This document shows, in pieces, positions 3,091 to 38,216 of a stretch of DNA of 64,000 nt. The translations under genes were made by a program, and so were the position numbers. The notes beneath the pieces are model-generated. The model saw only the letters and a program-made list of their open reading frames with translations, made no database searches and had not been told where the DNA came from. Each line of letters begins with the position of its first letter. Positions within the stretch are counted from its first letter, which is position 1. This stretch comes from a virus. The stretch lies in the IMG/VR virus record IMGVR_UViG_3300009124_000003; one strand, 5' to 3'.

Positions 3091-3238
3091 TGAGCACGTC
3101 TACGAGGAGTCGAACCTCACTTCCTTCGGTCGATTGCCGCCGACCAACCGGGTTTCCACCACCGCCCCTAACGCTGCTAGCGGCAACTAGCTTCGCCAAT
3201 AGGGCGTATCTTCCATCTTCACGAAGGTGGTAGACGTG
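3091..3238 (-). ncRNA. Candidate structured ncRNA with a tRNA-like acceptor/T arm and kissing loops
   Basis: 9-bp closing stem CACGUCUAC/GUAGACGUG; T arm GAGG-UUCGACU-CCUC; loops UUGCCG and CGGCAA are complementary; has its own promoter; no ORF. Confidence 0.7.
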
Positions 3239-3244
3239 AGAGTT

Positions 3245-3274
3245 ACCTTAGCACGCGTCAAATCATCGTGTCAA
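3245..3274 (-). promoter_or_regulatory. Promoter of the candidate ncRNA
   Basis: TTGACA (3274-3269)-N18-TAAGGT (3250-3245), with TG upstream of the -10. Confidence 0.75.
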
Positions 3275-7350: not shown

Positions 7351-8082
7351 CTACCCGCACCAGCTACCACTCATATACCAGGGTTGCCATTTACAGCCAG
7401 CCCAGCTAGCAGCCGAATCGGCAATGTATTTGGCCTGTACCAGATTAGTGTACGGGTCGAGCAAGTCTTCCCGTGTGAGGCCAATGCTTGTCAGTCGTGC
7501 CCCGTGTGCGGCCCAGTTGATCTGGGTCAAACCATAATCTCTTGTTGGGCTAATGGCTCCTGGGCGGCATGTAGATTCCTTGTACATGATTTGCCCGAGT
7601 TTAGGCAGGTCTTCTTCGGCCCATCCGGCAGATCGGGCAACATCCCACCATTCAGTACATTGCGGTGTAGGGTTTGAGTTTGAGGATGATCCTGAACTTC
7701 CAGCCGGAGCGCCGGGAACGTTGTCTGTGCTCCAGCCCATGCCTTCTAATAGTTCAATGTGGGCCACTCTGGTTTGAGGCCCGTACTGGCCATCTGCGGT
7801 TACACCCAAAACAGCCTGTAGCGCCTCTACGTTTTCTCCTCGCCCCCAGTCGTAATCGTCTAGCACGACTTCTGTAATCGGTTCTAAAACACTTAAATCA
7901 ATGGGTGTTGTATCTTCGAGCAGTGGGGAAGGCATCGTAACTTCTTGCACTTCCTCAACAACTTCAACAGGCGTAAGGTCGGGTTGCACTTCAGGTTCGT
8001 TGATGTTCAGCGGGTCGTCAGCAGCGCAGCTAACTGCGGCTACGGCGATAAGGCCTGTGGAAAACTTCGTCAGTGTATTCAT
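7351..8082 (-). CDS. Lipoprotein with PG-binding motif and lysozyme-like (SLT-type) transglycosylase domain
   Basis: Lipobox AVSC; LQAVLGVTADGQYGPQT; IMYKES, YGLTQIN, LLDPYTN, WQPW; leaderless start at 8082. Confidence 0.75.
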   Translation of the reverse strand: MNTLTKFSTGLIAVAAVSCAADDPLNINEPEVQPDLTPVEVVEEVQEVTMPSPLLEDTTPIDLSVLEPITEVVLDDYDWGRGENVEALQAVLGVTADGQYGPQTRVAHIELLEGMGWSTDNVPGAPAGSSGSSSNSNPTPQCTEWWDVARSAGWAEEDLPKLGQIMYKESTCRPGAISPTRDYGLTQINWAAHGARLTSIGLTREDLLDPYTNLVQAKYIADSAASWAGCKWQPWYMSGSWCG

Positions 8083-8140
8083 CCCAATAGGATACATGAG
8101 TTTACGGTCTATGGCAACCCTGCCCCACTAGACTATCTGT

Positions 8141-8452
8141 ATGAAGTCAGGACCTTTGCGTAAAGTTACACGCCAGAAGAAAAACGGGCTGCACGGTAAA
8201 TCTCGGTGGAACATTGAGATGGAATGCGGTCATGTTGATCGCGCATCACGCAGGTCTCCTCGAAGCCAGCGTCGATGTTCGCACTGCCTGAAGGAGCAAA
8301 CTGCCGAGATGAGTTTCGAGCTTGTTGATTACTCTCATATCGAAGCAAAGATCACTAGCGTTCTAGACTTGGAACCGGGTCAAGTAACAGTCAATGAGTT
8401 TGGCGGTCAGATTATCTTGACACCGTTTGATGTAGCCCGGCTTACTAGCTGA
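8141..8452 (+). CDS. Small basic protein with a putative Zn ribbon
   Basis: ECGH...CSHC; -10 TAGACT 6 nt before the ATG. Confidence 0.65.
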   Translation: MKSGPLRKVTRQKKNGLHGKSRWNIEMECGHVDRASRRSPRSQRRCSHCLKEQTAEMSFELVDYSHIEAKITSVLDLEPGQVTVNEFGGQIILTPFDVARLTS

Positions 8453-8474
8453 TTTTGGGCGTAGAGGTCCTACC

Positions 8475-8940
8475 CATTCGTTTGACAAGAGAGAAACATA
8501 ACTCTATCAGGCGAATGCTCTAGGGGGTCCCCGTAAGCGTTAGCAGCTTTTCCATCATCTCCACGATCTCTCATGGGGGTACTAAGCTGTTGGTGTCCAT
8601 AAACCACGCTTTCCAACTAGCCCTTACTATCGGGTCTAGCCATTCTCCCTGGATTCCTCGGCTCCAGTGGCCGGTTTGCCCCAGACCTCTCGGTTGTGCG
8701 GGGAACTCCCTAGTGCTCAAGTCCTAATGTTCAGCGTGCAGAGCCCTTTCGGGTTATCGTGCGATTCAGATCATCACTCTTTGCTGGCGGAAGTCACTTT
8801 AGCTCCCCTGCTTTTGCAGGTTCATGTCAATACGTAACGAATGTCCCACATCGGTGCGTTTATGGCTTGTATGTCATGGAGCCTTGCTCCGAGTTGTTGA
8901 TGTTGATTGGTCTCCTAGGCAGACGGGTGGTGAATACTTT
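8475..8940 (-). ncRNA. Candidate large structured ncRNA
   Basis: No credible ORF in about 570 bp; own promoter; nested long-range helices and GNRA hairpins found by hand. Confidence 0.6.
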
Positions 8941-8946
8941 GCTGGT

Positions 8947-9023
8947 AACCTATGCAAGCAGCTCGCGAATGTCAAGGGTCGGGTTTTCGTGACCTTGACA
9001 CTTTGTGAAATTCTTCATAAGAT
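8947..9023. promoter_or_regulatory. Back-to-back divergent SigA-type promoters (ncRNA leftward, whiB rightward)
   Basis: Minus TTGACA(8975-8970)-N17-TAGGTT; plus TTGACA(8995-9000)-N17-TAAGAT; the two -35 boxes form an inverted repeat. Confidence 0.8.
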
Positions 9024-9029
9024 AGATGC

Positions 9030-9266
9030 ATGTTAGATCTTGGCTTCCCTTCATTCTTTAGAACCGCTCCGTGTTCTACTGCTGAACATAGGGAAATCTT
9101 CTTTTCTCGACGCCCAACGGATCAGCGAGTGGCGCAGCAAGTCTGTGCCAACTGTCCGTTTCTTAGTGAATGTAAAGATTATCTTGACACGGGCGAGTAT
9201 GGCGACTATGGTGTCGTTGCTGGGATGACCCCGGCTGAACGACGCCGACTGAAGAAAGGTAAGTGA
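9030..9266 (+). CDS. whiB: WhiB-family Fe-S transcription factor
   Basis: C..(x)..CxxCP...C, GVVAG turn, TPAERRRL basic tail. Confidence 0.92.
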   Translation: MLDLGFPSFFRTAPCSTAEHREIFFSRRPTDQRVAQQVCANCPFLSECKDYLDTGEYGDYGVVAGMTPAERRRLKKGK

Positions 9267-9766
9267 TGGCATCTATTGAAGAAATTAAAGAAGCAATTGC
9301 ATCTCTGGATGCGATGATCGCTACTACAGGAAACCTTATCGGTGACGGCATTCCTTCCGTCGATCGAACTGAGGTTGCTGAGGTGGCAGTACAGTTCAAC
9401 AACTCGCTTGCTGCGATGAAGGACGTGTTTGCGATCCTGTCGTCTGATGCGATCAGTCAGCTTGAGTACACGCCCGATCCTATTGAGGTTGAGGGCGGTT
9501 CGGTTGAAATCAAGGCGGGTTCATCTCGCAAGGCTTGGGATCATGAGCGGCTCGCTTCGGTAGTTGCTAAGCGCATCCACGACTCTTCAGTTGATCTCAC
9601 TACAGGTGAGGTTCTTATGACTACGGAGCAGATGATCCAGGAGATCCTCAAGTATGCAGCCGTCTCGTATTGGCGTGTCGGTGCTCTCAAGGATCTTGAT
9701 CTTACGGCTGACAACTACTGTGAAGTCAGTGAACCAAAGACTAATCTCGTTATCAAAAGGAAGTGA
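9266..9766 (+). CDS. Hypothetical protein (recombination operon)
   Basis: Coupled TGATG overlap with whiB; host-like codon usage. Confidence 0.8.
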   Translation: MASIEEIKEAIASLDAMIATTGNLIGDGIPSVDRTEVAEVAVQFNNSLAAMKDVFAILSSDAISQLEYTPDPIEVEGGSVEIKAGSSRKAWDHERLASVVAKRIHDSSVDLTTGEVLMTTEQMIQEILKYAAVSYWRVGALKDLDLTADNYCEVSEPKTNLVIKRK

Positions 9767-9768
9767 AC

Positions 9769-10401
9769 ATGACTACTCAACAAGAAAAGCTTAACATCGA
9801 GTTTCCCGCAGAGGTTTGCCAGGAGTTGCCAAAAGCAGGCCGTCGGCTTACCTATGTTCCTGTGGCCGAGGTTATCACTCGGCTCAACGACGTTCTTGGT
9901 ACTGCCGGTTGGTCGTACACCGTGGAAGCGCGCTGGACTGACACGCACGAGTCGAAGTACGGCACCGAGGTTTGGGCCATGACTCACGTTCGCCTCGTCG
10001 CCACGATTGACGGCCAGCAGTGTGCCCGTGATGGCATTGGCGGGTACAATACTTCTAAGCCGGGAATGGATTACGCTGACGGCTGGAAGTCCGCCACGTC
10101 CGAGGCTCTCAAGAAGGCTGCTCAGGCGCTTGGTGTTGGCCTGCACCTTAGCCGCAGCGAGGAAGCTATCGCTATGGCTGCTGACCTTACTGTCGAGCGT
10201 GCGGATGCTGCTGAGCTTCAGGCATTTATTGCTGCGATGAAGGAAGCTAACTCGGTTATTGCGGGTGCTGTGAAGCAGCGCGCTCAAGAATTGGGTGCTA
10301 GCTGGAACGACATGCGCGCAGAGCACCTTACTGAGCTTAAGGCTATGGCTCAGGAGTACGCCGACAATGGTGTCGGTTCTACTGCGGAGCTACAAGCCTG
10401 A
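9769..10401 (+). CDS. Rad52/Rad22-family single-strand annealing protein (Sak-like)
   Basis: LTYV..AEVITRLNDVLG..GWS, RDGIG, KSATSEALKKAAQALGVGLHL. Confidence 0.88.
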   Translation: MTTQQEKLNIEFPAEVCQELPKAGRRLTYVPVAEVITRLNDVLGTAGWSYTVEARWTDTHESKYGTEVWAMTHVRLVATIDGQQCARDGIGGYNTSKPGMDYADGWKSATSEALKKAAQALGVGLHLSRSEEAIAMAADLTVERADAAELQAFIAAMKEANSVIAGAVKQRAQELGASWNDMRAEHLTELKAMAQEYADNGVGSTAELQA

Positions 10402-38140: not shown

Positions 38141-38216
38141 TCCTGGGTAGCACAATTGGCGGTGCGTTCGACTGTTAATCGAAGGGTTGTAGGTTCGAGT
38201 CCTACCCCAGGAGCCA
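38141..38216 (+). tRNA. trnN: tRNA-Asn (GTT) with encoded CCA
   Basis: Acceptor TCCTGGG/CCCAGGA, D arm GCAC/GTGC, anticodon arm TTCGA-ctGTTaa-TCGAA, T loop TTCGAGT; promoter TTGCCA-N18-TATCAT. Confidence 0.97.

What the first reader, a model, noticed from the sequence alone, without database searches (positions are those of the whole stretch)
8475..8975. Candidate large 'ornate' ncRNA (~370-470 nt) transcribed divergently from whiB
Seen: about 570 bp with no credible ORF in a gene-dense genome. A leftward TTGACA-N17-TAGGTT promoter (start about 8940) has no minus-strand gene to drive before the convergent 8141 gene. Hand folding of the minus strand gives nested helices: 8843-8825 with 8487-8475 (13 bp around a 6-nt bulge); 8713-8699 with 8533-8520 (13 pairs); 8611-8606 with 8540-8535; 8589-8584 with 8549-8544; and CCAUGA-GAGA-UCGUGG. 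There are also hairpins CCC-GAAA-GGG, ACC-GAGA-GGU and CCUGC-AAAA-GCAGG, and a perfect 8-nt long-range complement (8865-8858 with 8604-8597) that could be a pseudoknot. The GNRA loops read correctly only on the minus strand. Established: phages carry large structured RNAs of unknown function (GOLLD, ROOL). Inference: a new RNA of that class from an actinophage; a replication origin is the alternative.
Basis: partly seen in the sequence, partly recalled or inferred. Interest (0 to 1): 0.8.

Follow-up and report, generated by a model that had tools for sequence, protein, structure and literature searches.

The report
New large structured phage RNA
The gene-free gap next to whiB holds a real, roughly 480-base, intricately folded non-coding RNA that matches no catalogued RNA family, is conserved in at least a dozen related uncultured aquatic phages, and has an unknown job.

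Summary
Window 8453-9029 has no conserved ORF. It carries a leftward TTGACA-N17-TAGGTT promoter, followed on the minus strand by a structured element of about 480 nt (about 8940 to 8452).

I found homologues in 17 further metagenomic or viral contigs, forming three clades. The core is about 95% identical where flanking genes are 72-79%. At least ten helices keep pairing through compensatory changes, including a long-range helix (8865-8854 with 8607-8597) that closes a multi-way junction.

Wobble pairs and folding energy do not identify the strand. The minus strand is chosen on four grounds:
- a leftward promoter conserved in 11 of 12 lineages;
- no plus-strand promoter where the neighbouring genes differ;
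- GAAA, GUAA, UUCG and CUUG tetraloops exchanging at one hairpin;
- A-rich unpaired bases.

Rfam 15 gives no match, and the element is not homologous to GOLLD, ROOL or the L5/D29 Pleft RNA. Metatranscriptome contigs cover the element. This scan has not seen the sequence elsewhere.

Best reading: a new class of large, early-expressed, trans-acting phage ncRNA. The closest functional analogue is the abundant, roughly 500-nt Pleft RNA of mycobacteriophages L5 and D29. The mechanism is unknown.

The parts
8947..8975 (-). Leftward promoter of the RNA: -35 TTGACA (8975-8970), 17-nt spacer, -10 TAGGTT (8952-8947). Predicted start is about 8940.
   Evidence: Read from the sequence. The hexamers and the exact 17-nt spacing are kept in 11 of 12 lineages while the spacer sequence varies. 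The tool calls the equivalent site in L030 (TTGACA-17-TAAATT) and in L024 (TTGCCA-17-TATCGT). The window's own -10 falls below the scan's 4-of-6 rule.
8995..9023 (+). Rightward promoter of whiB and the early operon (TTGACA-17-TAAGAT), back-to-back with the RNA promoter.
   Evidence: Found by the promoter scan. Conserved in the alignment.
8891..8940 (-). Variable A/C-rich 5' leader. It starts near AAAGUAU and carries a conserved GGAG (8915-8912) with no start codon after it.
   Evidence: GGAG is present in 11 of 12 lineages; L001 has GGGG.
8871..8890 (-). Hairpin H0 (8890-8886 pairs with 8882-8878), followed by the conserved AUGACAU (8877-8871).
   Evidence: Five Watson-Crick variants: GGAGC/GCUCC, CGGCC/GGCCG, CGGC/GCCG, UAGGA/UCCUA, CGAGA/UCUCG.
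8854..8865 (-). 5' strand of the long-range helix LR (CCAUAAAC-G-CAC).
   Evidence: Pairs with 8607-8597. Eight distinct Watson-Crick variants across lineages, for example CCAUACUU/AAGUAUGG, CCUAUGAA/UUCAUAGG and CUUGCU/AGCAAG. The real stems are as long as the best shuffled-partner stem in fewer than 1 of 200 shuffles for most lineages.
8597..8607 (-). 3' strand of the long-range helix LR (GUG-GUUUAUGG).
   Evidence: As for the 5' strand.
8807..8853 (-). H2 (8853-8843 pairs with 8833-8823) and H3, the hairpin CCUGC-AAAA-GCAGG (8820-8807).
   Evidence: H2 shows the series G.U / G-C / A-U and a U-A to A-U change. H3 occurs only in the window's clade and does not covary.
8704..8795 (-). H4 (GACUUCC 8795-8789 pairs with GGGAGUU 8710-8704), enclosing the H5 arm. 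The arm contains CAAAGAGUGA (8783-8774), CGCACGAU (8763-8756), hairpin H5c CCC-GAAA-GGG (8753-8744), CUGCACG (8741-8735) and AGGACUUGAG (8725-8716).
   Evidence: H4 has seven variants, for example GGCCUCC/GGGGGCU, UCCAC/GUGGA, UUCAC/GUGAA and CCUAC/GUAGG. H5b shows AU:11 against GC:4. All three pairs of H5c covary, and its loop is GAAA, GUAA, GACA, CUUG or UUCG, or the stem is extended. The pairing of GUGA with UCGC is ambiguous against H5a.
8679..8703 (-). H6 (CCCCG...UGGGG) with the inner hairpin ACC-GAGA-GGU.
   Evidence: CCCC/GGGG changes to CCUC/GAGG, CGGAUC/GAUCCG, CUGAUC/GAUCAG, CGAAUCU/AGAUUCG and CGGAAC/GUUCCG.
8649..8678 (-). Conserved linker CAAACCGGCC plus H8 (CUGGA 8667-8663 pairs with UCCAG 8653-8649). 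A possible H-type pseudoknot joins CGGC (8673-8670) to GCCG (8662-8659).
   Evidence: H8 has six variants and three covarying pairs. For the pseudoknot, three pairs are invariant and one reads CG:10, AU:1, GA:4, which is weak support.
8608..8641 (-). H9 (GGCUAG-a-CCC ... GGG-CUAGUU, 8641-8615) and the conserved GGAAAGC (8614-8608).
   Evidence: CUAG/CUAG changes to CGGAAG/CUUCCG, CUAGAG/CUCUAG, CGUGAG/CUCACG, GCGUCAC/GUGGCGU and GCGCAC/GUGCGU.
8473..8596 (-). Variable 3' domain: H10 (8589-8585 pairs with 8548-8544), the hairpin CCAUGA-GAGA-UCGUGG (8576-8561), H11 (8537-8518), and H12 closed by CAUUCG (8517-8512) with CGAAUG (8480-8475). It ends in the conserved ACGAAUGGG.
   Evidence: H12 has nine variants, including CAUCCGU/ACGGAUG and UAUCGU/ACGAUA. 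H10 changes U-A to G-C. The middle part is deleted in distant homologues.
8450..8472 (-). 3' tail: the hairpin GGGUAG...CUACGCCC followed by AAAAUCA. It abuts the stop codon of the convergent 103-aa gene.
   Evidence: GCCCAAAA(U/A)CAG is shared with L013, L008 and L030, even though L030 has no convergent gene. The exact 3' end is not determined.

Best explanation
Window ~8940 to ~8452, minus strand, encodes an independently transcribed, highly structured non-coding RNA. It is about 480 nt here and 420-430 nt in distant relatives.

Anatomy, as shown by comparison:
- A host-type promoter (TTGACA-N17-TAnnnT) sits back-to-back with the promoter of the phage's early whiB / recombination operon. The RNA should therefore be made by host RNA polymerase from the start of infection.
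- The RNA has a short unstructured leader carrying a conserved GGAG, then a 5' hairpin.
- A core follows in which an 11-bp long-range helix closes a junction of five or six arms. The arms are joined by near-invariant, purine-rich strands: AUGACAU, CAAAGAGUGA, CGCACGAUAA, AGGACUUGAG, GGCAAACCGGC and GUUGGAAAGCG.
- A more variable 3' domain ends in ACGAAUGGG.

Inferred: the RNA acts in trans as a stable early RNA, and its conserved tertiary core binds a host or phage macromolecule as a scaffold or decoy. This would resemble the abundant, stable, host-toxic ~500-nt RNA made from the early Pleft promoter of mycobacteriophages L5 and D29.

My odds: real structured RNA about 0.95; minus strand about 0.85; independent trans-acting unit about 0.6; any specific partner is unknown. 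The confidence figure given (0.6) is for the whole statement including the trans-acting reading.
For: Conservation
- The core is about 94-95% identical to L001, where the flanking genes are 72-79%.
- nhmmer or the covariance model finds the element in 17 other contigs in three clades. Hits score E 1e-16 to 1e-165 and 146-196 bits.

Structure
- RNAalifold on the window's clade gives 104 pairs, 32 with changes on both sides.
- With distant homologues added, 29 of 54 pairs have changes on both sides.
- The marine clade folded on its own gives the same helices.
- Official count on 19 pairs: 97.2% paired against 88.4 +/- 0.9 in shuffles. The covariation score is 0.305 against 0.122, reached by 0 of 500 shuffles. 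Slid controls give 19-43% paired.
- Each main helix has five to nine distinct Watson-Crick variants.

Strand
- The leftward promoter is conserved.
- In L030 and L024 a second minus-strand promoter follows the element, and no plus-strand promoter precedes it.
- The loop of H5c changes between GAAA, GUAA, CUUG and UUCG, and two other loops are GAGA. None of these is a GNRA or UNCG loop on the plus strand.
- Unpaired bases are 40% A and 17% U.

Other
- No ORF is conserved.
- Contigs from four metatranscriptome runs lie on 8447-8767. In three of those runs almost nothing else within 7600-10000 is covered. Six RNA runs hold parts of the element.
- Analogue: the L5/D29 Pleft RNA (PMC5712189).
Against: - Minus-strand folding energy equals that of shuffles (z +0.38), while the plus strand gives z -2.28.
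- Alignment folding energies are close: -83.8 for minus against -78.4 for plus.
- A fair test of G.U against A.C is a tie, 55:55 and 32:29. The strand choice therefore rests on promoters, loops and base composition.
- The window's own -10 hexamer fails the scan's threshold, and L008's -10 is degenerate.
- The RNA evidence consists of assembled contigs with no strand information. It could include DNA carry-over, or it could favour the element merely because the element is the most conserved part.
- There is no canonical terminator at the 3' end.
- Relatives L002 and L003 lack the element, so it is dispensable for some phages.
- No direct evidence bears on the function.
Confidence: 0.6

Rival explanations
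1. The element is a cis-acting 5' leader of a leftward early operon. It would act as a processive antiterminator like HK022 put, as an attenuator, or as a riboswitch-like element controlling recA and other leftward genes, rather than as a free RNA.
For: - In the marine clade (L030 and relatives) recA lies directly downstream on the same strand. In L024 an epimerase gene does.
- The window also has leftward genes further on: SLT at 7351-8097, DUF932, recA and thioredoxin.
- There is no canonical intrinsic terminator after the element.
- In L5, about 10% of Pleft transcripts read through.
Against: - In the window's clade, L028 and L029, one or two convergent plus-strand genes follow the element.
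- In L030 and L024 a strong separate promoter (TTGACT-17-TAGAAT; TTTACA-17-TAGAAT) sits between the element and the next gene.
- 420-480 nt with ten or more helices is far larger than known antitermination RNAs. That size comparison is from my own knowledge.
Confidence: 0.15
2. The functional RNA is the plus strand. It would be a long structured 3' UTR and terminator region of the upstream small genes, ending at the H0 hairpin plus U-rich tract before the whiB promoter.
For: - Plus-strand folding energy gives z -2.28, against +0.38 for minus.
- Alignment folding energies are similar, and each strand has equal wobble support.
- The scan calls a plus-strand terminator-like site at 8877-8891.
- The tract after H0 is U-rich on the plus strand in two clades.
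Against: - L030 and relatives, and L024, have no plus-strand gene or promoter upstream of the element, yet they keep it.
- The tetraloops are GNRA, UUCG or CUUG only on the minus strand.
- Unpaired bases would be 40% U on the plus strand.
- A leftward promoter is conserved at a fixed place in 11 of 12 lineages.
- The U-rich tract is absent in L024, L029, L028 and L010.
Confidence: 0.07
3. The region is a replication origin, and the promoter-driven structured transcript serves as a primer or R-loop former.
For: - It lies between divergent early promoters, beside recombination and replication genes: Rad52-like, Cas4-like nuclease and recA.
- Transcription-primed origins are known, for example ColE1 RNA II and the T7 primary origin. 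This is from my own knowledge.
Against: - There are no iterons or repeat arrays.
- There is no AT-rich tract; GC is 0.49-0.53 throughout.
- Selection acts on RNA-type features: exchange of stable tetraloops, a junction of ten or more helices, and invariant purine-rich linkers. This goes beyond what priming needs.
- Relatives with the same replication genes lack the element.
Confidence: 0.05
4. The element is a decayed gene or a recently spread mobile DNA element with no RNA function.
For: - High nucleotide identity among close relatives could reflect recent transfer.
- A 25-nt exact match lies inside an unrelated phage gene in L005.
Against: - The element keeps its position, orientation and promoter in three clades whose flanking proteins are only 49-69% identical.
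- Helices are kept by compensatory changes.
- No ORF is shared.
- The element has no terminal repeats and occurs once in the window.
- The L005 protein shows no further similarity.
Confidence: 0.01

Closest known systems
Early Pleft non-coding RNA of Cluster A mycobacteriophages L5, D29 and StarStuff (Dedrick et al. 2017, PMC5712189)
   Same: It is an ORF-free stretch of about 500 bp immediately downstream of an early host-type promoter in an actinophage. It is made within minutes of infection, is very abundant and stable, and mostly ends after about 500 nt. It has no known function and is toxic to the host when cloned. Our element has the same size, the same position behind an early leftward promoter and the same lack of ORFs.
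   Different: There is no detectable homology. The covariance model scores at most 3.2 bits on L5 50700-52297, nhmmer finds nothing, and none of the conserved blocks is present. No conserved secondary structure has been reported for the L5 RNA in that paper. Ours lies mid-genome beside whiB, not at a genome end. The abundance, stability and toxicity of ours are untested.
GOLLD and ROOL, the large ornate RNAs of phages and prophages (Kretsch et al. 2025, PMC12286853)
   Same: They are large, multi-helix, phage-borne ncRNAs with their own promoters and strong covariation. They code for no protein and have no known function.
   Different: No Rfam family, GOLLD and ROOL included, matches the window or any homologue, even at E up to 10. 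Ours is smaller and is not next to tRNA genes; the only tRNA is at 38141. It shows no evidence of the self-assembly into homo-oligomers that the abstract of that paper describes.
phi29 pRNA and HK022 put RNAs (phage RNAs made from early promoters; from my own knowledge)
   Same: They are structured RNAs encoded just behind an early phage promoter, and they act as RNA: pRNA in the packaging motor, put in antitermination.
   Different: Both are much smaller and simpler, and neither gives an Rfam match here. The host groups differ. Nothing links our RNA to packaging. Separate promoters downstream argue against antitermination.

Membership tests
GOLLD / ROOL / OLE / raiA / HEARO and every other Rfam 15 family | Match to the family's covariance model (sequence plus structure). 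| tested here: not met
   cmscan at gathering score finds only tRNA-Asn in the whole window. No relevant hit appears at E up to 10 in 8300-9150, in seven homologue loci, or in four small loci with lax filters.
GOLLD / ROOL | Frequent placement beside tRNA genes in phages or prophages (from my own knowledge). | tested here: not met
   The only tRNA in the 64 kb is at 38141-38216. The element always sits beside the early operon.
GOLLD / ROOL | Homo-oligomeric RNA-only assembly. | not testable with these tools
   This needs native gels or cryo-EM of the transcript.
L5/D29 Pleft early ncRNA | Sequence or structure homology to the L5 51,140-51,672 transcript. | tested here: not met
   Covariance model R1 with filters off scores at most 3.2 bits. 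nhmmer finds no hit at E up to 10, and none of the conserved blocks is present.
L5/D29 Pleft early ncRNA | An ORF-free region of about 500 nt directly downstream of an early sigma-A-type promoter of an actinophage. | tested here: met
   Promoter at 8975-8947, ORF-free transcript region 8940-8452. The actinophage assignment rests on whiB and on a Gordonia-phage-like terminase at about 40% identity.
L5/D29 Pleft early ncRNA | Very abundant, stable early transcript that is toxic to the host. | tested here: inconclusive
   Metatranscriptome contigs lie preferentially on the element. They carry no strand, timing or abundance information. Toxicity is untested.
Structured ncRNA (generic) | Helices maintained by compensatory substitutions beyond controls. 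| tested here: met
   In one search, 0 of 500 shuffles reach the observed pairing or covariation, and slid controls give 19-43% paired against 97%.
Replication origin | Iterons and/or an AT-rich unwinding tract. | tested here: not met
   No repeat arrays. GC is 0.49-0.53 across the gap.

The most novel reading that the evidence does not exclude
This is a new class of large RNA whose conserved multi-helix core has an activity of its own. It might be a ribozyme, or a self-assembling RNA-only particle like ROOL and GOLLD. It might instead be a decoy that captures a central host machine early in infection, such as RNA polymerase (fitting its place beside a phage WhiB) or the ribosome (through the conserved GGAG leader). 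It is specific to uncultured phages of aquatic Actinobacteria.
Probability: 0.25. Interest if true: 0.9.

Novelty: new variant of a known kind. Interest (0 to 1): 0.75.

Why it matters
Bacterial and phage ncRNAs longer than 400 nt with complex conserved folds are rare. Each class found so far (RNase P, group I and II introns, OLE, GOLLD, ROOL) has turned out to be a catalyst or an unusual assembly.

This element adds a well-supported new class with a clear transcription unit. It has three diverged clades suitable for structure work, and it occurs in marine, estuarine and freshwater samples.

It also gives a structural counterpart to a long-standing puzzle in actinophage biology: the very abundant, host-toxic early non-coding RNA of L5 and D29, whose function is unknown. 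Early promoter-proximal large RNAs may be a general actinophage strategy. If the RNA binds a host machine, it would be a new type of phage takeover factor made of RNA.

Tried and rejected
- **Database searches that found nothing.** Rfam at gathering and at lax thresholds gave nothing. blastn against 50,697 phage records gave nothing. No whole genome is held for this window.
- **Chance pattern hits.** L005, L006 and L025-L027 share no further similarity.
- **Wobble-pair strand test.** G.U against A.C came out tied, so I dropped it as evidence.
- **Single-sequence folding z-score.** It favours the wrong strand and was not used.
- **Full-length MAFFT alignment of all 18 sequences.** It loses most helices, keeping 25 pairs. 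I relied instead on clade-wise folds and anchor-based stem tables.
- **Covariance model R1.** It carries only 19 pairs. I did not type a long structure string, so there is no full-length model.
- **T-loop or tRNA-like idea for UUCGGAU.** Rejected: those bases are the adjoining strands of H4 and H6.
- **Pairing of AUGACAU with UGUCAU.** Rejected: no covariation.
- **Helix H5d (GCACG/CUGC).** Doubtful: it is broken in L028, where GUGA/UCGC changes to GAGA/UCUC instead.
- **Small ORF behind GGAG.** No start codon follows.
- **Host or prophage copies.** None in 401 sampled Actinomycetota genomes. The scan across all species representatives gave only chance hits.
- **Homology to the L5 Pleft RNA.** None.
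- **Catalogue of candidate structured RNAs (PMC10690425).** Its supplement is not held, so I cannot tell whether fragments of this RNA are listed there.
- **This scan's earlier notes.** No look-alike sequence.

Full report
**What is there**

The window is a tailed-phage genome. It encodes a terminase, portal and capsid, a B12-dependent ribonucleotide reductase, RecA, a Rad52-like annealase, a Cas4-like nuclease, ParB and WhiB. No cultured phage is close: the terminase is about 40% identical to those of Gordonia phages, and blastn of the gap against 50,697 phage records finds nothing.

A 577-bp gap lies between a 103-aa gene (8141-8452, +) and whiB (9030-9266, +). Its ORFs are at most 77 aa. 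It stands back-to-back with the whiB promoter, TTGACA-17-TAAGAT at 8995-9023.

**Homologues**

Neighbouring proteins and DNA patterns led to 17 further contigs that carry the element:
- Close relatives from estuary and aquatic samples: L001, L008-L011, L013-L015, L017 and L021-L023.
- A middle group: L024, L028 and L029.
- A marine clade: L030-L035 with L039/L040, plus L038 and L041-L043.

The core (about 8583-8886) is 94-95% identical to L001, where the flanking genes are 72-79% identical. Across clades the adjacent 167-aa protein is only 49-69% identical. Even so, nhmmer finds the element at E 1e-16 to 1e-38, and a covariance model of the central domain finds all 18 copies at 146-196 bits. 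The model finds nothing in relatives L002, L003 and L036, which have no gap there.

The element always lies directly upstream of, and divergent from, the early operon: whiB or the 167-aa gene, then the Rad52-like and Cas4-like genes. What lies on its other side varies.

**It is a structured RNA, not a gene or an origin**

- No ORF on either strand is shared in position and frame across lineages.
- Insertions and deletions fall in hairpin tips. H5c is a 3-bp stem with a tetraloop in the window but an 11-bp extended hairpin in the marine clade.
- RNAalifold on the window's clade gives 104 pairs, 32 of them with changes on both sides. With distant sequences added, 29 of 54 pairs have such changes.
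- The marine clade folded alone (5 sequences, -96.8 kcal/mol) returns the same helices at the same places relative to the conserved blocks.
- On the 19 pairs carried by the model alignment, 97.2% of cells pair against 88.4 +/- 0.9 in shuffles. The covariation score is 0.305 against 0.122, reached by 0 of 500 shuffles. Sliding the partners gives 19-43% paired. My own controls on a MAFFT alignment of 18 sequences agree.
- Stem tables anchored on the conserved blocks show 5-9 different Watson-Crick versions of each of H0, LR, H4, H5c, H6, H8 and H12. H9 varies in the same way.
- There are no iterons and no AT-rich tract.

**Architecture (window coordinates, minus strand)**

- Leader, 8940-8891, with a conserved GGAG.
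- H0: 8890-8886 pairs with 8882-8878. AUGACAU follows.
- Long-range helix LR: 8865-8854 pairs with 8607-8597. It closes a junction that holds:
  - H2 and H3;
  - the long H4/H5 arm (8795-8704);
  - H6 (8703-8679);
  - the conserved linker GGCAAACCGGC;
  - H8 (8667-8649), possibly knotted to the linker through CGGC/GCCG, which has one compensatory event and is weak;
  - H9 (8641-8615).
- A variable 3' domain follows, with H10-H12 and the conserved ACGAAUGGG, then a tail that reaches the stop codon of the convergent gene.

The strands that join the helices are near-invariant and purine-rich. That pattern suggests a specific tertiary fold or a binding surface.

One region is ambiguous. GUGA/UCGC, which changes to GAGA/UCUC in L028, competes with H5a (GAGU/ACUU), which changes to GAGC/GCUU in L015.

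The CCAUGA hairpin is also right.

The pairings 8843-8825 with 8487-8475, and 8713-8699 with 8533-8520, are not kept in distant homologues. Their strands have better-supported partners: H12 for the first, H4 and H6 for the second.

**Which strand**

This needed care. The usual tests do not separate the strands:
- The minus strand folds no better than shuffles (z +0.38), while the plus strand does (z -2.28).
- Alignment folding energies are close, -83.8 against -78.4.
- A symmetric test counted G.U against A.C in helices shared by both predictions and in the pairs stacked on them. It is a tie, 55:55 and 32:29.

I choose the minus strand on these grounds:
1. The leftward promoter keeps both hexamers and exactly 17 nt of spacer in 11 of 12 lineages, while the spacer sequence changes.
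2. In L030 and L024 the left-hand neighbours are minus-strand genes. There the scan finds the minus-strand promoter upstream of the element, a second one just after it for the next gene, and no plus-strand promoter on the left.
3. The same hairpin carries GAAA, GUAA, CUUG or UUCG in different lineages, and two other loops are GAGA. Their complements are not stable-tetraloop families.
4. Unpaired bases are 40% A and 17% U.

**Expression**

Six seawater metatranscriptome runs hold parts of the element. I laid four of them on 7600-10000. In three, contigs fall on 8447-8767 and almost nowhere else. In the fourth, the deepest contig (23.9) lies on 8546-8732, against 3-9 on the flanking genes.

These are assembled contigs without strand information. 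The element is also the most conserved part, so this is supportive rather than decisive.

**What it is like**

Nothing in Rfam 15 matches. It is therefore not GOLLD, ROOL, OLE, raiA, HEARO, pRNA, 6S, tmRNA, RNase P or an intron.

The best analogue by position and size is the ~500-nt non-coding RNA made from the early Pleft promoter of mycobacteriophages L5, D29 and StarStuff. That RNA is the most abundant phage transcript, it is stable, and it is toxic to the host. About 90% of its transcripts end after 500 nt, and its function is unknown (PMC5712189). The two are not homologous.

The element was not found in bacterial genomes. An all-species pattern scan returned only chance hits, and 401 sampled Actinomycetota genomes gave none.

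**Mechanism**

Shown by comparison: an independent transcription unit behind an early host-type promoter, and a conserved complex fold.

Inferred: a stable trans-acting RNA whose core binds a host or phage macromolecule.

A cis role on leftward genes is the main rival (about 0.15), followed by a plus-strand element (0.07) and an origin (0.05).

**Verdict**

This is a real and well-supported new class of large phage ncRNA. Its function is open.

Noticed in passing
window 8453; L001:2944-3213; L009:1226-1498; L013:481-750: Most close relatives carry an extra 89-90-aa ORF between the 103-aa gene and the RNA's 3' end. The window and L010 lack it, so this is a ~270-bp indel right at the RNA's 3' boundary.
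   Followed up: partly
window 8915-8912 (minus strand): A Shine-Dalgarno-like GGAG is conserved in the otherwise variable 5' leader in 11 of 12 lineages. It lies about 25 nt from the predicted start, and no start codon follows. It could be a ribosome or protein contact, or part of a small 5' hairpin.
   Followed up: partly
window 8592-8616; L005:6993-7017: A 25-nt exact match (GGTGTCCATAAACCACGCTTTCCAA) lies inside a 785-aa gene of an unrelated viral contig. There is no further DNA or protein similarity. It is longer than chance predicts and remains unexplained.
   Followed up: partly
window 8722-8735 and 9081-9094: A 14-nt inverted repeat (86% match) exists at the DNA level. As a result the ncRNA junction strand GCUGAACAUUAGGA nearly repeats, in the same sense, a stretch of the whiB mRNA. 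The two cannot pair with each other. The meaning is unknown and it may be chance.
   Followed up: no
window 9184-9212 (+): A second strong promoter-like site (TTGACA-17-TATGGT) lies inside the 3' part of whiB, pointing at the next gene.
   Followed up: no
L008:3552-4136: In this 96-kb relative the gene caller extended WhiB to 194 aa across part of the RNA element on the plus strand. Other lineages have 74-78-aa WhiB proteins, so this is probably an annotation artefact.
   Followed up: partly
L030:2293-2321; L024:1747-1775: Strong promoters (TTGACT-17-TAGAAT; TTTACA-17-TAGAAT) sit immediately after the RNA's 3' end and serve recA or an epimerase gene. The conserved tail GCCCAAAAUCAG lies just before them.
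   Followed up: partly
window 3091-3274: Another first-stage note describes a promoter-driven tRNA-like RNA on the minus strand, upstream of the DUF932 gene. ARAGORN and Rfam do not call it. I did not examine it.
   Followed up: no
window 8416-8430 and 8994-9008: A direct repeat, CTTGACACCGTTTGA and CTTGACACTTTGTGA. The -35 region of the whiB promoter is echoed inside the end of the 103-aa gene.
   Followed up: no
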